Positions 1-7,479 of a stretch of DNA of 7,480 nt are shown one piece after another. The notes beneath the pieces are model-generated. The model had not been told where the DNA came from. It did no database searches and saw only the letters and a program-made list of their open reading frames with translations. Position numbers and translations under genes: made by a program. The DNA lies in IMG/VR virus record IMGVR_UViG_2690316225_000012. One strand, 5' to 3'. Source of the stretch: a virus. Its lineage: Duplodnaviria > Heunggongvirae > Uroviricota > Caudoviricetes. Positions within the stretch are counted from its first letter, which is position 1. Every line of letters begins with the position of its first letter.

Positions 1-1
1 G

Positions 2-109
2 AATTACGAGAAGCGCCATACCAAACAGGGGATACAGACCAACCTGACGCTGAAAGAGGAAAGCTACGGCGACTGGCTGCCAAAATGTGACGACCCTGCG
101 ACAGCCTGA
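2..109 (+). CDS. 3' end of an unidentified gene (last 35 codons; start lies outside the window)
   Basis: Frame 2 is open from the window edge to TGA at 107-109 (...NYEKRHTKQGIQTNLTLKEESYGDWLPKCDDPATA*); the other two + frames contain stops. A terminator hairpin follows immediately. Product not recognised. Confidence 0.4.
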   Translation, partial: NYEKRHTKQGIQTNLTLKEESYGDWLPKCDDPATA

Positions 110-115
110 CCCACC

Positions 116-140
116 TGACCGGCATCTGCCGGTCTTTTTT
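116..140 (+). terminator. Rho-independent terminator
   Basis: Stem GACCGGC (116-122), loop ATCT, stem GCCGGTC (127-133), then T7 (134-140), 7 nt after the stop codon of the upstream partial ORF. Confidence 0.7.
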
Positions 141-470
141 TATCCCTGAATTCCCCGAAGGTGAACAATCCACTGTTCACCCTTCACCGTACATTCACCC
201 GTTATCACACTGAAATTTAAAGAGAAAAATGAAAGGTGAACAGTGTGAACAATCAAATCAAAAAAAAACTTTTTTCTCCCTGTGTGATTTCAGTTCGGGG
301 GATTAATCACCGGTATGAGTCACACCGGCAGAATGCCGGAGGTGAAGAATCGAATGTTCACCCTTCACCCATTATTCACCACCTATCACTCTGAAATAAA
401 AGGAGAAAATCAAAGGGTGAACAGTGTGAACAGTTCTTTCGAAAAAAAATTTTTTTCCTGTACGATATAG
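116..470. repeat. Two direct repeat units, about 180-bp period, roughly 80% identical by eye (approx. 116-288 and 325-468), each with internal palindromes and A/T tracts
   Basis: Unit A: GTGAACA(161-167)...TGTTCAC(174-180), TTCACC at 183-188 and 195-200, GGTGAACAGTGTGAACA (235-251), A-tract then T-tract (260-275). Unit B has the same order at +181: CCCTTCACCC (361-370), GGTGAACAGTGTGAACA (416-432), A8T7 (442-456). Each unit is preceded by a CCGGCA-N-TGCCGG hairpin (118-131; 325-339). No ORF in the track covers this region. Confidence 0.7.
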
Positions 471-743
471 CATCAATCCAAGTAAAAATGCGCTTTCATT
501 TCACATTAACTTACAGCCATTGGTATACGATTAGGTATACGCACAAAAACTGAATTAAACAAAATCGTTAAAAATCAAAGCAATATAATATTTATTCAAA
601 CTCCGCCAGCCCCCAATCATGATTGGACGGTGTAAGGACAACACCAACAAAAACAGGAAGTTAGCAGTCTCAGCAGGACACCGACCAGACGGTGAGGAGA
701 CAAAAAAGGATACGCAAAGGAGCCGCGGCTCTCAAGTGTGAAA

Positions 744-769
744 GAAGCCCGCAAATTGCGGGCTTTTTT
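744..769 (+). terminator. Rho-independent terminator
   Basis: GC-rich stem GCCCGC (747-752) / GCGGGC (758-763), extendable by A-T pairs, loop AAATT, followed by T6 (764-769). No ORF upstream, so it may end a non-coding transcript or insulate orf343. Confidence 0.8.
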
Positions 770-824
770 ATTGATCAGTCAACAATAAACAGTAACCGAA
801 TGAGAATTTAATAAGGATATTCAT

Positions 825-1856
825 ATGGAAGCTACTGTGGATTCGATTGATTTTCTGATCCGTAGTGAAGATGATTTTCTAAACTTTCTGGAAGAAATGA
901 AAGCCCGAGAGGGGCTTGATTCTAAAGAGTTTATTTTCCCTAACGTAAAGTTTGCAGGCTGGCCATCCTTAGACATAAATGTAAAAGGAGAGCGGTATCA
1001 TTCATCAATTACATCAGCAATGTTGTTTGGTATGTCAATGCTCAACGAGGAGATACAGCGGGCGTTTGCAACCATACGATACGGATCGCAGAATCTTCAA
1101 CGCTTGACTAATGAAGACAAGCAACGACTTGATATAAATTTTAAAATTAGCGAAGGTTCTAGTGATGCGGAAGGCACCACTGACAAGATCATCAACGCAG
1201 TAACTGATTTTTTGCGAGATACTATGTCTGGACTGAACGGCTGGCAGAAAATGCTTGTTATAATCACAATGGTTGGCGCGGCCAGCACATGTGGTTATCA
1301 CTACATTTCAGAAAATGCCGTAACAGAAAGACATGCAACTGATCGGCAGGTTGAAATTGCAAAAACCACATCCGATGGCATAAACAAAGCCATAGAAGCA
1401 ACATTAGATTATAAAATCTATGGGAAATCAGCGATTAGCGATAAAGTTACTAGTCACGGACAAGCAGGTAAAAGTGCTTTAGTGAAGCAATTAGCTGCTG
1501 ATCCTACTGTCGAAACCGTGACTTTAGGAAATGAGAAACTAACACGACAAGACCTAAATACCTACAACAGCCGACAATCTGTAGATAGAGAACGTAAAGA
1601 ACGAACTGATATATTTTCCATCAAAGGTGTAACCAGAACAGGGCCAACAAATCAGGATATTAATATTAACGTTGTTAGGGTCTCTAATGACGAATGCTTC
1701 ACAATCAAAGCTTCAGCTGATGTTATCACCCAAGATGAGTTGACAGCTATTGTTGACGCTTTGTCAAACAACTCTCATATTAAAATCAGTTACTTAGAGG
1801 TAATTGAAAAGGGTGCTGTTTCTATAGGTCAGTTCAACACTATTGTTTCAGAATAA
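825..1856 (+). CDS. Hypothetical protein, 343 aa, with one central hydrophobic (likely transmembrane) segment; AT-rich cargo gene of unknown function
   Basis: Long ORF with ATG at 825 and an AAGGA ribosome-binding site at 813-817 (7-nt spacing). Hydrophobic stretch WQKMLVIITMVGAASTCGYHYI. Visibly more AT-rich than the tail genes. No motif I can assign to a known family. Confidence 0.8.
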   Translation: MEATVDSIDFLIRSEDDFLNFLEEMKAREGLDSKEFIFPNVKFAGWPSLDINVKGERYHSSITSAMLFGMSMLNEEIQRAFATIRYGSQNLQRLTNEDKQRLDINFKISEGSSDAEGTTDKIINAVTDFLRDTMSGLNGWQKMLVIITMVGAASTCGYHYISENAVTERHATDRQVEIAKTTSDGINKAIEATLDYKIYGKSAISDKVTSHGQAGKSALVKQLAADPTVETVTLGNEKLTRQDLNTYNSRQSVDRERKERTDIFSIKGVTRTGPTNQDININVVRVSNDECFTIKASADVITQDELTAIVDALSNNSHIKISYLEVIEKGAVSIGQFNTIVSE

Positions 1857-1907
1857 TCACTTAACCCCATTTATGTCGGTTGAGGTTATAAGTCACGGAG
1901 ACCAGAT

Positions 1908-2252
1908 ATGTCCTTAAAGTATGCACATGAAAAATTTCATACTGCAGTACTTACTCTTGCGGGCCATGGAAGTATTCAAGAACGCTTGATTAATTCGTAT
2001 GTTTTTAGCCTTGGGCATCTTAAAACAGCCGATGATATTCCAAATGCCTTACAAAGCAGGTTCGATGAATTATGTAAGGAACTGACTAAGTTTGATGCCA
2101 CTGGCGATGAGGGGCGAGTTCAAGCAACAGTATCAAAACTTAACGATTTCGAGATCAATAAACTGATCGAAGATATTGTCAGTCTTAACGATGATATTTG
2201 CATGAAATTGGCTCTGACGGATGAGACTTACCAAGACATACACCAAAGTTAA
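1908..2252 (+). CDS. Hypothetical acidic protein, 114 aa; its last 27 codons lie inside the left inverted repeat
   Basis: ATG at 1908 with GGAG at 1897-1900 (7-nt spacing), 51 bp after orf343, same strand and AT-rich composition. Stop at 2250-2252, followed by a hairpin at 2280-2302. Confidence 0.75.
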   Translation: MSLKYAHEKFHTAVLTLAGHGSIQERLINSYVFSLGHLKTADDIPNALQSRFDELCKELTKFDATGDEGRVQATVSKLNDFEINKLIEDIVSLNDDICMKLALTDETYQDIHQS

Positions 2253-2279
2253 TTGATTAAATTCAAAAAGTTAACGTTC

Positions 2280-2302
2280 AACCAGCCAGTTTTTGGCTGG
2301 TT
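2280..2302 (+). terminator. Hairpin terminator downstream of orf114 (convergent with orf70)
   Basis: AACCAGCC (2280-2287), loop AGTTTTT, GGCTGGTT (2295-2302), followed by TATTGTCTT. Sits between the convergent orf114 and orf70. Confidence 0.55.
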
Positions 2303-2336
2303 TATTGTCTTATAATATTCTTGCTCGAATGATGCA

Positions 2337-2549
2337 CTATTTATGATGTAATCCGGACATCAGTTCATGGACAAGATTATCTCTTTCATTGTGTTGCAAC
2401 CGTAAATGCATAGCAAAAAGGTGAGCACTATCCTCATTCCTCTTCAAGCCATGCTGTTCAAGATACCCGAAAAAACGGCTTCTCTTATCCGCTATTTCCT
2501 GAGTCTGACGTGCAACATTTACCAAATTTTCTAGCGTTTTTCTTGGCAT
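2337..2549 (-). CDS. Hypothetical small basic protein, 70 aa, immediately downstream of pin (copy 1)
   Basis: Identical to ORF 6135-6347; the strong AGGAGG ribosome-binding site read from the right copy (6122-6127, 7 nt before the ATG) is present here by symmetry. Product not recognised. Confidence 0.6.
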   Translation of the reverse strand: MPRKTLENLVNVARQTQEIADKRSRFFGYLEQHGLKRNEDSAHLFAMHLRLQHNERDNLVHELMSGLHHK

Positions 2550-2747
2550 ACTATTTCCTCCTGAAATTGTTGTAATTCACTAGGATATTCATTTTAATTT
2601 GTATCATTTAGTACCAAAACCGCTATCAATTAACAAAGCCATCGTTGTGGTTTACCTTGCAGCCGTTTTTTGTCATTGACTCTATGTGAAAATAATGAAT
2701 CATCATGAGATTGGCTCACACGTTCTTGAATTCGACGAGCTGTGTCT

Positions 2748-3302
2748 TTATTTATCTCCTGCCGGAAACCTCTGATACAAAGTCGATACGCCAACATCAT
2801 AGATAATCGCAACTTTCTGGCGCGGAACTCCTGATGCAATTAATCGTCCGGCTTGTGCCCATTGTTCTGGTGTAAGTTTGGGACGACGTCCACCAATTCG
2901 TCCCTGTGCGCGAGCAGCTTCCAGTCCAGCTTTTGTTCGTTCAACAATCAGTTCTCGTTCCATTTCAGCCAGGGCCCCCATCACATGAAAGAAAAAGCGC
3001 CCCATTGGGGTACTGGTATCAATTGAATCCGTCAGACTACGAAAGTTGATGCCTCGTTCGCGCAACTCCTCCACCAGCACGACAAGATGCCGCATACTGC
3101 GCCCCAGTCGGTCCAGTTTCCAGACCACCAGCGTATCGCCTGCCGATAATGTCCTGAGCAGTTTTTTCAGTCCCGGCCTTTCGGACTTTGTACCGCTTAT
3201 CTTGTCTTCAAAAATCAGCTCGCATCCTGCACAGTTCAGCGCATTACGTTGTAGATCTGTGTTCTGGTCATTTGTTGACACACGTACATAGCCAATAAGC
3301 AT
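2748..3302 (-). CDS. pin: Serine DNA invertase, Hin/Gin/Cin/Pin family (copy 1), 184 aa
   Basis: Translation MLIGYVRVSTNDQ... has the N-terminal catalytic Ser10 motif of small serine recombinases and a C-terminal helix-turn-helix region (GVPRQKVAIIYDVGVSTLYQRF). Preferred start is the internal ATG at 3300-3302, which has a GGAG site 7 nt upstream, not the ORF-track start at 3338. I recognise it as e14 Pin-like. Confidence 0.9.
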   Translation of the reverse strand: MLIGYVRVSTNDQNTDLQRNALNCAGCELIFEDKISGTKSERPGLKKLLRTLSAGDTLVVWKLDRLGRSMRHLVVLVEELRERGINFRSLTDSIDTSTPMGRFFFHVMGALAEMERELIVERTKAGLEAARAQGRIGGRRPKLTPEQWAQAGRLIASGVPRQKVAIIYDVGVSTLYQRFPAGDK

Positions 3303-3356
3303 GGTAGATCTCCCTGACAAAAGCAGGAATGATGCCATTTGCTCGTTATTTCTGCA

Positions 3357-3382
3357 TTTTCATAAACGTTGGTTTGGGAGAA
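3357..3382. other. 26-bp invertase crossover site 1 (pix/gix/hix-like)
   Basis: TTTTCATAAACG-TT-GGTTTGGGAGAA: two imperfectly palindromic 12-bp half-sites around a 2-bp AA/TT core, matching the architecture of hixL/gixL/cix sites. Located between pin and variable cassette A, in frame for GLGE. Confidence 0.75.
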
Positions 3383-3383
3383 G

Positions 3384-3825: not shown

Positions 3826-4269
3826 ATGAACTCAGTATTCTTTTCACCCGCAAGTAAAAGTTTTTATCTGCAAGAATTGTTTCCAGAATATGAGGATGCG
3901 GGAACGCTTCCTGATGATGTTATTGAAATTACCAGAGAAACATATGAGCAATTTCTTGGGCTGCATCCAGAAGGGAAAGAAATTGGCGCTGACAGTTCAG
4001 GACGGCCAATATGGATTAATTCCCCGCCGCCTTCAAAAGAGGATGAGATGCTGGCGGCTGAAATGAAAAAGATATCTTTGGTTTCAGAAGTCAATACCTA
4101 CATCAATACCCATCAGTGGCCTGGCAAAGCTGCTATTGGTCGTCTGAAAGGTTACGAGCTGGAACAATATAATTTATGGCTGGATTATCTGGACGCACTG
4201 GAACTGGTTGATACCTCCAGTGCTCCAGATATTGAATGGCCTACGCCTCCGGTAGTTCAGGCCAGATGA
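3826..4269 (+). CDS. Tail fibre assembly protein (Tfa), paired with cassette A
   Basis: 147 aa ending ...YLDALELVDTSSAPDIEWPTPP, the conserved Tfa C-terminal motif. ATG lies 2 nt after the cassette A stop. Confidence 0.85.
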   Translation: MNSVFFSPASKSFYLQELFPEYEDAGTLPDDVIEITRETYEQFLGLHPEGKEIGADSSGRPIWINSPPPSKEDEMLAAEMKKISLVSEVNTYINTHQWPGKAAIGRLKGYELEQYNLWLDYLDALELVDTSSAPDIEWPTPPVVQAR

Positions 4270-4846
4270 CATCCGGCGCGGTGCTGGTATCTGTTGCAGT
4301 CACCGCGTCAATGTAATCCAGCACAGCGTTAAGCCGGGTTGTTTCTGCCTGCGTCAGCTTCCGCCCGGCCTGCAATTTCAGCTGAATCAGACTAATGGAA
4401 GCCATAGCAGCATCAATCAGTGACTGGCGCCGTACTTCTGCCGCGTCTACTGCGGCGTTATGCTGTGCCTCAGTATCGGTCACCCATTTCTCACCATCCC
4501 ATTTATCGTATGACGTTAACGGGGCGATAGTGGTTGTATTTTCAGGGTAATCACCCGGAACTGTGATTTCTTTTGATTCTCCTGTTTCGGTGCTATAGAC
4601 GATTTCACCGCGATGGTCTGGCACATATTCCCATGAGTTAAAATCTGCAGAACGGCAAATTGCATAACCAGCTTTATATGAGCCAGGAGCATCTAAACAG
4701 GAACATGCCGGGATACCAACACCCACAGCAAGATATTCAGTTGATGTGGAAATATATTCCCGTGTTTCACCATCATAATTATAAACGGTAATGTCTCCGG
4801 CCTTTGTGGCGATGAGTTCATTATTTAATACAGCTTTACTTATCAT
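4241..4846 (-). CDS. Tail fibre assembly protein (Tfa), paired with cassette B
   Basis: 201 aa ending ...LDYIDAVTATDTSTAPDVIWPELPEA (Tfa C-terminal motif). Start overlaps the cassette B stop as ATGA (4843-4846); its 3' end overlaps the other tfa by 29 bp. Confidence 0.85.
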   Translation of the reverse strand: MISKAVLNNELIATKAGDITVYNYDGETREYISTSTEYLAVGVGIPACSCLDAPGSYKAGYAICRSADFNSWEYVPDHRGEIVYSTETGESKEITVPGDYPENTTTIAPLTSYDKWDGEKWVTDTEAQHNAAVDAAEVRRQSLIDAAMASISLIQLKLQAGRKLTQAETTRLNAVLDYIDAVTATDTSTAPDVIWPELPEA

Positions 4847-5300
4847 GCAGCCCTCACAATATAATTAAAGGCGATGTTACGGGAGCGGGTTTCAGATGCT
4901 GTGCGAACTGAGCGAGATGCGTCGAATGTCCAGTTATAAGCGCCATAACCCTCAATAATTTCGGCTTCCTTTAGACCTGTAGATAATACTTGCCCATGTT
5001 GACTAAATGGCCCTGAACTAAGTACGTCTCTAAAAAGCTGGGTACGCCCAAAAGAACCAACAATATTCTGAATTGCATCATTCTGTGCAGATAATAAGTT
5101 ACGACCAGAGTCAATCCCGCGCCCATCATCCCAGCCACGAATAAATTCACCGCGTAAATCTGGTAATTTTAATGTTGGGTAAGCCTTTGCCAGATTTGGG
5201 TACTTTTCAGAAGAAAATACTGCTCCGTTACATTTTAGCCACCCCGTTGGCGGAGTGGCGGAAGGCCACGGAACAGGCACACCAACGGGTAATGCCGAAC
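4843..5300 (-). CDS. Side tail-fibre C-terminal variable cassette B (no start codon of its own; in frame with the GLGE codons of site 2)
   Basis: ORF track 4843-5355. After GLGE: GSALPVGVPVPWPSATPPTGWLKCNGAVFSSEKYPNLAKAYPTLKLPDLRGEFIRGWDDGRG...RNIAFNYIVRAA, which I recognise as a Mu S / e14 StfE-type fibre C-terminus. Confidence 0.8.
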
Positions 5301-5301
5301 C

Positions 5302-5327
5302 TTCTCCCAAACCAACGTTTATGAAAA
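5302..5327. other. 26-bp invertase crossover site 2 (inverted copy of site 1)
   Basis: TTCTCCCAAACC-AA-CGTTTATGAAAA; exact reverse complement of site 1; encodes FINVGLGE on the minus strand at the start of cassette B. Confidence 0.75.
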
Positions 5328-5381
5328 TGCAGAAATAACGAGCAAATGGCATCATTCCTGCTTTTGTCAGGGAGATCTACC

Positions 5382-5936
5382 ATGCTTATTGGCTATGTAC
5401 GTGTGTCAACAAATGACCAGAACACAGATCTACAACGTAATGCGCTGAACTGTGCAGGATGCGAGCTGATTTTTGAAGACAAGATAAGCGGTACAAAGTC
5501 CGAAAGGCCGGGACTGAAAAAACTGCTCAGGACATTATCGGCAGGCGATACGCTGGTGGTCTGGAAACTGGACCGACTGGGGCGCAGTATGCGGCATCTT
5601 GTCGTGCTGGTGGAGGAGTTGCGCGAACGAGGCATCAACTTTCGTAGTCTGACGGATTCAATTGATACCAGTACCCCAATGGGGCGCTTTTTCTTTCATG
5701 TGATGGGGGCCCTGGCTGAAATGGAACGAGAACTGATTGTTGAACGAACAAAAGCTGGACTGGAAGCTGCTCGCGCACAGGGACGAATTGGTGGACGTCG
5801 TCCCAAACTTACACCAGAACAATGGGCACAAGCCGGACGATTAATTGCATCAGGAGTTCCGCGCCAGAAAGTTGCGATTATCTATGATGTTGGCGTATCG
5901 ACTTTGTATCAGAGGTTTCCGGCAGGAGATAAATAA
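5382..5936 (+). CDS. pin: Serine DNA invertase, Hin/Gin/Cin/Pin family (copy 2), 184 aa
   Basis: Identical translation to copy 1; GGAG at 5371-5374, ATG at 5382. The ORF-track start at 5346 adds 12 codons with no ribosome-binding site and is not preferred. Confidence 0.9.
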   Translation: MLIGYVRVSTNDQNTDLQRNALNCAGCELIFEDKISGTKSERPGLKKLLRTLSAGDTLVVWKLDRLGRSMRHLVVLVEELRERGINFRSLTDSIDTSTPMGRFFFHVMGALAEMERELIVERTKAGLEAARAQGRIGGRRPKLTPEQWAQAGRLIASGVPRQKVAIIYDVGVSTLYQRFPAGDK

Positions 5937-6134
5937 AGACACAGCTCGTCGAATTCAAGAACGTGTGAGCCAATCTCATGATGATTCATTATTTTCACAT
6001 AGAGTCAATGACAAAAAACGGCTGCAAGGTAAACCACAACGATGGCTTTGTTAATTGATAGCGGTTTTGGTACTAAATGATACAAATTAAAATGAATATC
6101 CTAGTGAATTACAACAATTTCAGGAGGAAATAGT

Positions 6135-6347
6135 ATGCCAAGAAAAACGCTAGAAAATTTGGTAAATGTTGCACGTCAGACTCAGGAAATAGCGGATAAG
6201 AGAAGCCGTTTTTTCGGGTATCTTGAACAGCATGGCTTGAAGAGGAATGAGGATAGTGCTCACCTTTTTGCTATGCATTTACGGTTGCAACACAATGAAA
6301 GAGATAATCTTGTCCATGAACTGATGTCCGGATTACATCATAAATAG
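6135..6347 (+). CDS. Hypothetical small basic protein, 70 aa, downstream of pin (copy 2)
   Basis: AGGAGG at 6122-6127, ATG at 6135; identical to 2337-2549 (-). Confidence 0.6.
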   Translation: MPRKTLENLVNVARQTQEIADKRSRFFGYLEQHGLKRNEDSAHLFAMHLRLQHNERDNLVHELMSGLHHK

Positions 6348-6381
6348 TGCATCATTCGAGCAAGAATATTATAAGACAATA

Positions 6382-6404
6382 AACCAGCCAAAAACTGGCT
6401 GGTT
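6382..6404 (-). terminator. Hairpin terminator (inverted-repeat copy of 2280-2302), here oriented to end the truncated fibre transcript
   Basis: Reverse complement of the 2280-2302 hairpin; on the minus strand the stem is followed by TATTGTCTT. Confidence 0.5.
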
Positions 6405-6431
6405 GAACGTTAACTTTTTGAATTTAATCAA

Positions 6432-6818
6432 TTAACTTTGGTGTATGTCTTGGTAAGTCTCATCCGTCAGAGCCAATTTCATGCAAATATCATCGTTAAG
6501 ACTGACAATATCTACTTCTCCCAAACCAAGGTTTTCGAGAGCCGTTTTCACCGTGCCATCAGATTTGATATCGCCAAACGGATTCTTGCGGCTTAACAGC
6601 AGCGCACGAAGCGCGGTAAGCAGCTGGTCATGCCGCCCCTTCTCCAGGCTGGCACCGGATGCCTCCACCACGCTGCAGAGTTCTTCCTGCAACATGTCAA
6701 AGTAGTCATCATCCAGATCGGTGGCAGGTGTGCCGGTCTGGGGGTTACCACGGGTAAAACCGTTCTTACCCGCGCCGAACTTATCCTTCTGCGCGGTTTT
6801 CGTGTCTATACGATGCAT
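6432..6818 (-). CDS. Side tail-fibre N-terminal constant domain, fused in this arrangement to a 27-aa tail copied from orf114 (truncated fibre)
   Basis: ATG at 6816-6818 with GGAG 7 nt upstream, 3 nt after the YmfQ-like stop. [21 protein letters not shown]...[10 protein letters not shown] looks like a fibre N-terminal domain and ends in the GLGE crossover-site codons. The ORF then runs into the inverted repeat and ends [27 protein letters not shown], identical to the orf114 C-terminus. Confidence 0.7.
6516..6541. other. 26-bp invertase crossover site 3, inside the fibre constant-domain gene
   Basis: TTCTCCCAAACC-AA-GGTTTTCGAGAG: the left half-site is identical to that of site 2, the right half-site is fibre-specific; encodes LENLGLGE in the fibre frame; 2 nt from the inverted-repeat boundary. 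Confidence 0.7.
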
Positions 6819-6821
6819 GGA

Positions 6822-7479
<658 letters not shown>

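What the first reader, a model, noticed from the sequence alone, without database searches (positions are those of the whole stretch)
825..2252. AT-rich two-gene cassette (orf343 with a central membrane-like helix, plus orf114) in the cargo slot next to pin: candidate uncharacterised phage-defence or abortive-infection module
orf343 and orf114 are co-oriented, closely spaced (51 bp), have strong ribosome-binding sites and are bracketed by terminators (744-769 and 2280-2302). They are clearly more AT-rich than the neighbouring tail genes and pin, consistent with horizontally acquired cargo. They occupy the position next to the invertase that in e14 holds the restriction gene mcrA, and regions downstream of prophage tail-fibre genes are known hotspots for anti-phage systems. 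I see no recognisable catalytic motif (no canonical P-loop, nuclease or reverse-transcriptase signature). orf343 has a single hydrophobic segment (WQKMLVIITMVGAASTCGYHYI) between two soluble-looking halves; orf114 is small and acidic. The function is a hypothesis only.
Basis: partly seen in the sequence, partly recalled or inferred. Interest (0 to 1): 0.7.

Follow-up and report, generated by a model that had tools for sequence, protein, structure and literature searches.

The report
Uncharacterised prophage membrane protein, likely exclusion gene
The larger gene belongs to a big, never-studied family of phage membrane proteins that sits where temperate phages keep genes that block rival phages (including the slot of lambda's rexAB), so it is a good but unproven candidate for a new single-gene phage-exclusion protein, while the small second gene is only a local companion.

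Summary
orf343 (825-1856) and orf114 (1908-2252) are real, co-oriented and 51 nt apart. Both have ribosome-binding sites, are AT-rich (39% GC against 50-57% for neighbours) and are bracketed by strong terminator hairpins.

orf343 belongs to a large uncharacterised family (phrog_6191; 841 representatives at 50% identity) with no Pfam, NCBIfam, PADLOC or PDB sequence match. Its predicted architecture is a conserved N-terminal α/β domain, one positionally conserved hydrophobic helix, a helical hairpin and a C-terminal OB fold.

Across 53 loci the family is a stand-alone accessory gene of temperate phages. In 19 loci it lies directly after cI, in lambda's rexAB slot, in a cI-gene-terminator arrangement. 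Elsewhere it sits in tail-gene moron slots or at prophage ends. orf114 accompanies it only in the near-identical E. coli lineage, so this is not a conserved two-gene system.

In the window's own slot (pinE to the prophage end), other strains carry mcrA or a restriction-modification pair plus a GIY-YIG gene.

Best reading (about 0.5): a lysogen-expressed, membrane-anchored exclusion or defence protein. No function has been shown.

Side finding: the last 82 nt of orf114 lie in a 1,213-nt perfect inverted repeat that duplicates pin. This layout is absent from 5,426 complete genomes.

The parts
741..769 (+). Intrinsic terminator hairpin plus U-run downstream of the ssrA 3' end/att copy; it insulates orf343 from upstream transcription.
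   Evidence: dG -19.3 kcal/mol, z -5.96, 0 of 200 shuffles fold as well. In complete genomes ssrA ends at the equivalent of window ~617.
825..1856 (+). orf343: a 343-aa member of an uncharacterised phage family (phrog_6191). Predicted to be a single-pass membrane protein.
   Evidence: ORF. phrog_6191 E 6.8e-38 over the full length. 76 clusters and 841 representatives. No Pfam, NCBIfam or PADLOC hit. AF2 mean pLDDT 79.
846..1229 (+). Codes for the N-terminal α/β domain (aa 8-135), the most conserved part of the family (motifs GWPxLxINVKG, NLQRLTNEDKQxLD, EGSS).
   Evidence: Alignment A1. Mean pairwise identity among distant members is 0.27, against 0.15-0.19 for the C-terminal parts. No PDB fold match was found for this domain.
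1248..1307 (+). Codes for the hydrophobic segment (aa 142-161, KMLVIITMVGAASTCGYHYI), the predicted transmembrane helix.
   Evidence: KD19 of 1.41 here and mostly 1.6 or higher in homologs. The position is conserved in 69 of 69 members while the sequence varies. AF2 helix at 139-153.
1509..1844 (+). Codes for the C-terminal OB-fold domain (aa ~229-340), preceded by a helical hairpin (aa 179-224).
1908..2252 (+). orf114: a small acidic protein predicted to be all-helical. It is a real gene but confined to one lineage.
   Evidence: ORF. pI 4.91. 6 clusters only. 19 synonymous against 14 nonsynonymous codon differences relative to the 85% homolog. AF2 pLDDT 49, so the model is unusable.
2131..2154 (+). 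Secondary Pin crossover site inside orf114 (TATCAAAACTT-AA-CGATTTCGAGA, centre at 2142-2143).
   Evidence: In L058 the block 2144-3368 is inverted in place, with both junctions at the site centres. orf114 becomes a 122-aa variant that diverges after residue 79. The site score of 15/22 is not above chance on its own.
2280..2302 (+). Terminator hairpin between the convergent genes orf114 and orf70.
   Evidence: 10-pair stem plus T-run. (dG -15.2 kcal/mol, z -4.73).
2337..2549 (-). orf70: a 70-aa basic ORF (pI 9.4) in the same AT-rich block, between orf114 and pin. Function unknown.
   Evidence: Annotated as WP_001137529.1, hypothetical. Co-occurs with the E. coli cassette in 7 loci. No family hit.
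2748..3302 (-). pin (pinE), the serine invertase.
   Evidence: Resolvase E 1.8e-51 plus HTH_7. Annotated as pinE in complete genomes.
3358..3381 (+). Primary crossover site upstream of pin (TTTCATAAACG-TT-GGTTTGGGAGA). Further copies lie at 5303-5326 and 6517-6540.
   Evidence: three sites score 22/22.
5301..6513 (-). Second, inverted copy of 2171-3383 (orf114 3' end, terminator, orf70, pin). It creates a 128-aa fusion ORF between the tail-fibre N-terminus and the orf114 tail (6432-6818).
   Evidence: (1,213 nt, 100% complementary). The junction is absent from 5,426 complete genomes and from IMG/VR.

Best explanation
orf343 is an autonomous accessory ('moron') gene of temperate phages. It encodes a single-pass inner-membrane protein with four parts: a conserved N-terminal α/β domain (most likely cytoplasmic), one transmembrane helix, a helical hairpin stalk, and a more variable C-terminal OB-fold domain (most likely periplasmic).

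It is expressed from the prophage. In lambdoid phages it is co-transcribed with the cI repressor. In this window it is an insulated cassette beside ssrA.

Its most likely job is to protect the lysogen from other phages at the cell membrane. It could do this by interfering with genome entry (superinfection exclusion, as with HK97 gp15 or P22 SieA). Alternatively it could sense infection and abort it.

orf114 is a real, small, acidic helical protein that travels with orf343 only in the E. coli lineage. It is a local accessory or modulator, not an obligate partner.

Shown here: gene reality, family size, architecture, genomic slots and operon layout. Inferred: membrane topology, expression in lysogens, and any anti-phage activity.

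For: 2. The rexAB slot. In 19 of 53 loci the gene lies 26-190 nt downstream of, and co-oriented with, an HTH_3 + Peptidase_S24 repressor. In 9 of these loci an N36 antiterminator gene follows. The same layout appears in deposited phages phi458 and PhiR12_1. In both there is no terminator between cI and the gene, a strong terminator right after the gene, and then a PL-like promoter before N.

3. Other slots are also classical moron or cargo positions. One is between the gene at the tail-chaperone position and the tape-measure gene in Klebsiella, which is the slot of the HK97 gp15 exclusion moron (PMC3594210). Others are next to integrase, or next to tail-fibre genes at prophage ends.

4. The window's own slot holds mcrA in K-12 and a type II RM pair plus a GIY-YIG gene in strain 1916D18.

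5. orf114 is absent from 46 of the 53 loci surveyed. It is retained under purifying selection in two E. coli contexts.
Against: - No experimental phenotype exists.
- Neither orf343 nor 40 distant relatives match any PADLOC model.
- No effector or catalytic domain is recognisable.
- The window protein's own hydrophobic segment is only marginal (KD 1.41), and AF2 models only residues 139-153 as a helix. The charge bias for topology is weak.
- A large, highly conserved cytoplasmic domain is not needed for a simple entry blocker.
- No clear promoter was found upstream of orf343 in the window.
- Occupants of the rex slot can have other roles. RexA, for example, also biases the lysis-lysogeny switch (abstracts listed).
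- Guilt by association with defence slots is suggestive only.
Confidence: 0.5

Rival explanations
1. This is the reader's version: a two-gene abortive-infection or toxin-antitoxin-like module. orf343 would be a membrane-acting toxin or effector, and orf114 would neutralise, regulate or trigger it.
For: - The two genes are co-oriented, 51 nt apart and share flanking terminators.
- They are always found together at 99.6% identity or more in 46 of 46 complete E. coli genomes that carry either.
- The pair persists in a second context without orf70 and pin (L059/L060).
- orf114 is under purifying selection.
Against: - orf114 has only 6 close clusters.
- It is missing next to every orf343 homolog at 82% identity or less, including the 80% homologs that also sit beside ssrA.
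- The wider family of 841 representatives shows no conserved partner.
- Frameshifted copies of both genes exist (L057). In L058 orf114 lost its C-terminus by inversion while orf343 stayed intact, which argues against strict antitoxin dependence.
Confidence: 0.15
2. orf343 is a lysogen-expressed accessory protein with a role other than defence. It might modulate the prophage's own lysis-lysogeny switch or induction (as RexA does). It might instead change host envelope physiology, such as transport, stress tolerance or colonisation.
For: - The gene occupies lysogen-expressed slots.
- It has no nuclease, NTPase or other typical defence domain, and no PADLOC hit.
- Its conserved cytoplasmic domain and membrane anchor would suit signalling.
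- RexA has a documented role in the switch (papers listed).
- phi458 was studied for biofilm and virulence effects (title).
Against: - The family appears in very different phage backbones and slots: the immunity region, the tail operon and att ends. A switch regulator tied to one immunity system would not be expected to do so.
- The same slots are the known homes of exclusion genes.
- It has no signal peptide or outer-membrane features like the Lom or Bor virulence morons.
Confidence: 0.25
3. orf343 is a component of the phage's own lytic machinery, such as a tail, injection or lysis protein, rather than cargo.
For: Some homologs lie inside tail-gene clusters. The OB fold and coiled hairpin also occur in structural proteins.
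Against: - The gene is present in only 46 of 5,426 E. coli genomes, although the neighbouring tail module is common.
- It is AT-rich relative to its neighbours and is bracketed by its own terminators.
- It is found in the immunity region, on the repressor strand, in 19 loci.
- It is retained in a degraded prophage remnant beside ssrA.
- PHROGs assigns no structural category.
Confidence: 0.05

Closest known systems
Bacteriophage lambda RexA/RexB exclusion system
   Same: Family members occupy the same genomic slot, between cI and N on the repressor strand. They have the same operon logic: cI, then the gene, then a terminator, then PL-N. A membrane component is involved in both.
   Different: There is no sequence relationship (hhalign probability 0.1% to RexA and to RexB). 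This family is one gene rather than two. It has one predicted TM helix, where RexB is a polytopic membrane protein (from general knowledge). RexA's fold is absent.
Inner-membrane superinfection-exclusion morons: HK97 gp15 (YebO-like) and P22 SieA
   Same: All are prophage-expressed, single-gene, membrane-inserted proteins. The Klebsiella homologs sit between the gene at the tail-chaperone position and the tape-measure gene, the slot described for HK97 gene 15 (PMC3594210). SieA is a single inner-membrane protein that is sufficient to block DNA injection (PMC10883804).
   Different: orf343 is much larger (343 aa; SieA is 162-164 aa with three TM helices, and gp15 is a small protein). It has two folded soluble domains, including an OB fold and a highly conserved N-terminal domain. 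No shared family was detected. Exclusion activity is untested.
SNIPE / PD-lambda-1 (membrane-anchored DUF4041 + GIY-YIG nuclease)
   Same: SNIPE is a single-protein, single-pass membrane-anchored defence that acts at the site of genome injection, with variable regions thought to contact phage or host entry proteins (PMC13190303). It is a plausible functional analogue.
   Different: SNIPE's TM helix is near the N-terminus, and its DUF4041 and nuclease domains are cytoplasmic. orf343 has a central TM helix, no DUF4041, no nuclease domain and no PADLOC hit.
Cargo of the e14-type pinE-to-att slot: McrA (K-12) and a type II RM pair plus a GIY-YIG gene (strain 1916D18)
   Same: All occupy the same position relative to the ymfQ/tail-fibre/tfa/pinE module, at the prophage end.
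   Different: Those are recognisable nucleases or methyltransferases. orf343, orf114 and orf70 have no recognisable enzymatic domain.
DUF6575-containing proteins (one of the domains listed among the 21 systems validated by Vassallo et al. 2022)
   Same: A siphovirus protein annotated as 'DUF6575 domain-containing' is one of three full-length structural matches in BFVD (E 1.1e-5, 321 columns). DUF6575 is listed among domains newly implicated in defence (PMC9519451).
   Different: Neither orf343 nor 40 relatives match Pfam DUF6575 or any PD-system model in PADLOC. I could not determine which PD system contains DUF6575 or what its architecture is. This is a lead, not a relationship.
Hin/hix H-segment of Salmonella and multi-site invertase systems (Min of p15B)
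   Same: With the secondary site inside orf114, pin lies inside its own invertible segment, as hin does (from general knowledge). The locus then has two adjacent invertible segments that share a middle site.
   Different: The inverted state was seen in only one draft assembly and in none of 5,426 complete genomes. The site is a weak match (15/22). The result of inversion is truncation and re-tailing of orf114, not a known expression switch.

Membership tests
Known anti-phage defence systems (PADLOC-DB v2.0.0) | Significant match of a component to a system HMM | tested here: not met
   orf343, orf114 and orf70 give 0 families at E<=1. Among 40 distant orf343 relatives only three isolated hits appear, at E 0.005-0.01 and to different models. 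Newer DefenseFinder models could not be searched.
Lambda RexAB | Sequence or profile homology to RexA or RexB | tested here: not met
   hhalign of family profile A1 against lambda RexA and RexB gives probability 0.1% and E 0.55-0.63.
Lambda RexAB | Location between cI and N, co-oriented with cI, terminator after the gene(s) | tested here: met
   Seen in 19 of 53 loci, plus phi458 and PhiR12_1. This holds for homologs, not for the window's own copy, which lies beside ssrA and pin.
Membrane superinfection-exclusion proteins (HK97 gp15, P22 SieA type) | Integral inner-membrane localisation | tested here: inconclusive
   There is one hydrophobic segment, conserved in position in 69 of 69 members. 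It is marginal in the window protein (KD 1.41). No dedicated TM predictor or experiment was available.
Membrane superinfection-exclusion proteins (HK97 gp15, P22 SieA type) | Blocks DNA entry of superinfecting phage without affecting adsorption | not testable with these tools
   This needs plating, adsorption and DNA-injection assays.
Membrane superinfection-exclusion proteins (HK97 gp15, P22 SieA type) | Prophage moron slot with its own or repressor-linked expression | tested here: met
   The slot before the tape-measure gene in Klebsiella (the slot is defined in PMC3594210). The cI operon. Terminator-bracketed in the window.
Two-gene toxin-antitoxin or Abi module | Both genes co-conserved across the family | tested here: not met
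   orf114 lies next to orf343 in only 7 of 53 loci, all at 94% orf343 identity or more. There is no conserved downstream partner elsewhere.
Two-gene toxin-antitoxin or Abi module | Toxicity of one component relieved by the other | not testable with these tools
   This needs expression experiments.
OB-fold domain superfamily | Five-stranded β-barrel with a helix between strands 3 and 4, and a significant structural match | tested here: met
Pfam DUF6575 | Match to the DUF6575 HMM | tested here: not met
   No DUF6575 hit for orf343 at E<=1, or for 40 relatives at E<=0.01. There is only a structural match to one viral protein carrying that label.
Pin/Hin/Gin invertible-DNA system (for the site inside orf114) | Inversion with junctions at the central dinucleotide of two inverted crossover sites next to a serine invertase | tested here: met
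   In L058, window 2144-3368 is inverted in place. The junctions are ...CTTAACG|TTTATGG... and ...CGAAATCG TT GGTTTGGGAGAA. pin is adjacent.
Pin/Hin/Gin invertible-DNA system (for the site inside orf114) | Recognisable 26-bp dyad site above background | tested here: inconclusive
   The score is 15/22 against 22/22 for the three primary sites. Shuffled sequence gives 1.4 sites at 15 or more on average.

The most novel reading that the evidence does not exclude
The phrog_6191 family is a new, widespread class of single-protein transmembrane anti-phage sensor-effectors. A variable periplasmic OB-fold domain on a helical stalk would recognise a component of the incoming phage's injection apparatus, such as the tape measure or ejection proteins. 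The conserved cytoplasmic N-terminal domain, which has no known fold relative, would execute exclusion or abortive infection. Temperate phages would swap this gene into the rexAB slot and other moron slots.
Probability: 0.2. Interest if true: 0.8.

Novelty: new variant of a known kind. Interest (0 to 1): 0.55.

Why it matters
If orf343 excludes phages, it would define a large defence family that is missing from PADLOC v2 (841 representatives at 50% identity, reaching at the structural level to Leptospira and uncultured phages). The protein is a single, experimentally tractable gene with an unusual architecture: a membrane-spanning protein with an OB fold and a novel conserved domain. It would also show that the cI-N interval of lambdoid phages is a swappable exclusion slot beyond rexAB. 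The family offers a direct way to ask how cells detect phage genome entry at the inner membrane. For annotation, it would give a working hypothesis for a 'hypothetical protein' found in many Enterobacterales prophages. The side observation matters too. Pin-site rearrangements reach into the cargo genes, and draft assemblies of this locus are frequently rearranged or chimeric.

Tried and rejected
- Pfam, NCBIfam, PADLOC and PDB-sequence searches of orf343, orf114 and orf70 gave nothing significant. The same held for 40 distant orf343 relatives.
- tRNA/tmRNA and Rfam scans of the window found nothing. Only about 23 nt of the ssrA 3' end is present.
- The orf114 structure prediction was too poor (pLDDT 49) to search with.
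- The 'T2SS GspM' annotation of the PhiR12 homolog is not supported by Pfam.
- RexA/RexB homology is rejected.
- I looked for a conserved partner gene and found none.
- I took the L057 '86% orf114 variant' for a possible hypervariable allele. It is a frameshifted copy.
- I tried to explain the window's junction at 6513/6514 by crossover at the orf114 site, by microhomology, and by tandem duplication followed by inversion. None fits exactly. The junction is in no complete genome and no IMG/VR contig.
- I tested whether the 2,637-bp circular record (window 732-3368) reflects reciprocal excision. The predicted chromosomal scar is absent.
- Literature searches for phi458, PhiR12, the protein accessions and phrog_6191 found no characterisation.
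- The DUF6575 lead could not be tied to a specific PD system.
- The search for related loci with the divergent alignment A2 failed because it had no conserved stretch.
Full report
**1. The observation**

The two ORFs exist as described. orf343 is at 825-1856 and orf114 at 1908-2252, both on the + strand and 51 nt apart. Shine-Dalgarno motifs lie 7 nt upstream of each ATG: AAGGA for orf343 and GGAG for orf114 (sequence).

Both proposed terminators fold as strong hairpins followed by U-runs. The one at 741-769 has dG -19.3 kcal/mol and z -5.96. The one at 2280-2302 has dG -15.2 kcal/mol and z -4.73 (the second is also).

The block is AT-rich. GC is 0.395 for orf343, 0.386 for orf114 and 0.399 for the neighbouring orf70. 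That compares with 0.497 for pin and 0.568 for the tail genes. orf114 is acidic (pI 4.9). orf343 has one hydrophobic stretch at residues 143-161.

A third AT-rich ORF, orf70 (2337-2549, minus strand), separates the pair from pin. The last 82 nt of orf114 belong to a 1,213-nt perfect inverted repeat. No convincing promoter lies between the upstream terminator and orf343.

**2. Where the locus sits**

In complete E. coli genomes the order is ssrA (tmRNA), orf343, orf114, orf70 (-), pinE (-), invertible tail-fibre segment, ymfQ. The cassette is therefore the last cargo at the ssrA-proximal end of a prophage or prophage remnant that carries an e14-type tail-fibre/pin module.

The pair is present in 46 of 5,426 complete genomes. 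It is always found together, at 99.6% identity or more, once per genome.

The same pinE-to-end slot holds the type IV restriction gene mcrA in K-12 e14. In strain 1916D18 it holds a type II restriction-modification pair plus a GIY-YIG gene.

**3. What orf343 is**

It has no Pfam, NCBIfam, PADLOC or PDB-sequence match. It matches phrog_6191 ('unknown function') over its full length (E 6.8e-38).

A word-indexed search found 76 clusters, all hypothetical proteins from Enterobacterales. An exhaustive profile search found 841 representatives at 50% identity (494 at E<=1e-10). Nearly all are 320-350 aa and align end to end. Forty distant members also hit no Pfam or PADLOC family.

AlphaFold2 with a 30-sequence alignment gave a usable model (mean pLDDT 79, pTM 0.60). 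It shows:
- an N-terminal α/β domain (residues about 10-132);
- a helix at 139-153 that covers the hydrophobic segment;
- a disordered linker (156-183);
- a helical hairpin (179-224);
- a β-rich C-terminal domain.

BFVD gave three full-length matches to uncharacterised phage proteins: Leptospira phage LE1, a protein labelled 'DUF6575 domain-containing', and a myovirus protein (E 5e-6 to 1e-5).

The hydrophobic segment is conserved in position in all 69 distinct members examined, while its sequence varies. This is the pattern expected of a transmembrane helix. Flanking charges weakly favour an N-in, C-out topology. The N-domain is the most conserved part, with 0.27 mean identity among distant members against 0.15-0.19 for the linker, hairpin and OB.

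**4. Genomic context of the family (the key evidence)**

I collected 53 loci and tabulated their neighbours.

In 19 loci the gene lies 26-190 nt downstream of, and co-oriented with, a lambda-type repressor (HTH_3 + Peptidase_S24). In 9 of those loci the next co-oriented gene is an N antiterminator (Pfam N36). The cI-to-N interval is where lambda carries rexA-rexB.

Two deposited lambdoid phages show the same layout. In phi458 the order is cI, Orf11, and so on. In PhiR12_1 it is cro, then divergently cI, the gene, and N. In both phages there is no terminator between cI and the gene. A GC-rich terminator follows its stop codon, and a PL-like promoter then precedes N. That is the cI-rexA-rexB-terminator / PL-N logic.

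The other contexts are also accessory slots:
- between the gene at the tail-chaperone position and the tape-measure gene in Klebsiella prophages, which is the slot of the HK97 gp15 exclusion moron (PMC3594210);
- at the end of a lambdoid Enterobacter prophage, after the tail fibre and DinI genes;
- between tail-fibre genes near an integrase in Xenorhabdus;
- next to a lambda-type integrase.

The family is unrelated to RexA or RexB (hhalign probability 0.1%).

**5. orf114 and the 'two-gene' idea**

orf114 has only six close clusters. Two of them are frameshift artefacts and one is an inversion product.

It accompanied orf343 in only 7 of the 53 loci, all at 94% orf343 identity or more. Homologs at 80-82% identity that also sit beside ssrA have an S24-peptidase (UmuD-like) gene downstream instead.

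orf114 is nevertheless a real gene. An 85%-identical version still follows orf343 in a second context that lacks orf70 and pin (L059/L060). The substitutions are mostly conservative, with 19 synonymous against 14 nonsynonymous codon differences.

Its AlphaFold model is all-helical but low-confidence (pLDDT 49), so I drew no fold inference.

Conclusion: orf343 is the autonomous unit. orf114 is a lineage-specific companion of unknown role.

**6. Most likely mechanism**

The evidence is as follows. The gene is a single-gene accessory in lysogen-expressed slots of many unrelated temperate phages. It has a conserved membrane anchor, a variable OB domain on a stalk, and no enzymatic signature.

My best reading (about 0.5) is a prophage-encoded exclusion or defence protein acting at the inner membrane. 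It may block genome entry. HK97 gp15 and P22 SieA are precedents, and SNIPE is a precedent for a membrane-anchored defence acting at injection. Alternatively it may be a transmembrane sensor-effector that causes abortive infection. The highly conserved cytoplasmic domain fits that second option better than a passive blocker.

Topology, expression and activity are all inferred, not shown.

The rivals are:
- a true two-gene Abi/TA module (0.15);
- a non-defence lysogenic-conversion or switch-modulating role (0.25);
- a structural or lysis role (0.05).

**7. Comparison with known systems and novelty**

The gene shares the slot of RexAB but not its family. It shares the logic of gp15, SieA and SNIPE but not their architecture. 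It shares a slot with McrA and RM cargo but has none of their domains.

DUF6575 appears in a list of domains found among experimentally validated E. coli defence systems (PMC9519451). The only link to orf343 is a structural match to one viral protein carrying that label. Direct HMM tests were negative, so this remains a lead.

I class the finding as a new variant of a known kind, namely a prophage exclusion moron, belonging to an uncharacterised family. It is not a demonstrated new system.

**8.

The window contains pin and orf70 twice, as a perfect 1,213-nt inverted repeat (2171-3383 / 5301-6513) flanking the tail-fibre segment. There are three identical crossover sites. The outer end of the second arm abuts a complete crossover site at the end of the tail-fibre constant region. 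This creates a 128-aa fusion ORF that ends in the last 25 residues of orf114.

No complete genome has this layout or this junction, and neither does IMG/VR. It is either a private rearrangement or an assembly chimera.

Separately, an NCBI draft assembly (L058) has the block 2144-3368 inverted in place. Both junctions fall exactly at site centres, which reveals a secondary Pin site inside orf114 (2131-2154). The inversion yields a 122-aa orf114 variant. The site is a weak match (15/22, not above chance), and the inverted state is absent from complete genomes.

A 2,637-bp 'circular plasmid' record equals window 732-3368 closed at the pin-proximal site centre. The predicted chromosomal scar was not found.

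Other draft contigs (L011, L013) also show odd arrangements. Assemblies of this locus should be treated with caution.

Noticed in passing
window 2171-3383 and 5301-6513: A perfect 1,213-nt inverted repeat duplicates the orf114 3' end, the terminator, orf70, pin and the crossover site on both sides of the invertible tail-fibre segment. The junction at 6513/6514 fuses the tail-fibre N-terminal ORF (6432-6818) to the last 25 residues of orf114. This layout is absent from 5,426 complete E. coli genomes and from IMG/VR. It is either a private rearrangement or an assembly chimera, and I could not derive the junction from a simple crossover.
   Followed up: partly
window 2131-2154; L058:4560-5800: There is a secondary Pin crossover site inside orf114. 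In one NCBI draft assembly the 1.2-kb block containing the orf114 3' end, orf70 and pin is inverted in place, with junctions at the site centres. That puts pin inside its own invertible segment (Hin-like) and gives orf114 a different tail (122 aa). The state is rare: it was not seen in any complete genome.
   Followed up: partly
L063 (NZ_CP148395.1, 2,637 bp) = window 732-3368: A 'complete circular plasmid' record consists only of orf343, orf114, orf70 and pinE. It closes exactly at the centre of the crossover site upstream of pin, and that assembly has the gene pair nowhere else. The predicted chromosomal excision scar was not found, so the choice between an excised circle and an assembly artefact is unresolved.
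   Followed up: partly
window 2337-2549 (-) and 6135-6347 (+): orf70 is a 70-aa basic ORF (pI 9.4) with the same low GC as orf343 and orf114. It travels with the E. coli cassette downstream of pin. It matches no family, and its function is unknown.
   Followed up: partly
window 1-775: The left end is 96-97% identical to regions in other E. coli genomes that lie at the end of a gene annotated as 'primase-helicase zinc-binding domain-containing protein'. I take this to be P4-like, which is my inference. It is followed from ~595 by a copy of the ssrA 3' end/att region. A 122-nt direct repeat (155-276 / 336-457, 79% identity) lies within it. In the source genome, therefore, another integrative element probably sits between ssrA and this cassette.
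   Followed up: partly
L011 and L013 (IMG/VR contigs): Other draft contigs of the same locus are also oddly arranged. L013 has pin + orf70 on both sides of a different invertible segment. L011 joins window 3988 to 6929 and repeats part of the invertible segment in the opposite orientation. This suggests mixed-orientation populations or misassembly at Pin sites.
   Followed up: no
L057 (window-equivalent 1156 and 1980); L016 (window-equivalent 1280): Some copies of the cassette carry single-base indels that frameshift orf343 and/or orf114. These may be sequencing errors or the start of pseudogenisation. The protein-database entries P0080 and P0082 are such artefacts.
   Followed up: yes
L004:9797-15250: In one Enterobacter genome, the region just beyond the orf343 homolog contains a palindromic duplication: an ISL3 transposase, a small ORF, Peptidase_S24 and SoPB_HTH genes, mirrored around the centre.
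   Followed up: no
L059:896-1276 and L060:726-887: In the second context of the orf343-orf114 pair, the downstream gene begins MCGRFAQ.... I recognise this from memory as a YedK/SRAP-like (SOS-response-associated peptidase) start, and I did not test it. Only an 11-residue remnant of orf70 lies in between.
   Followed up: no
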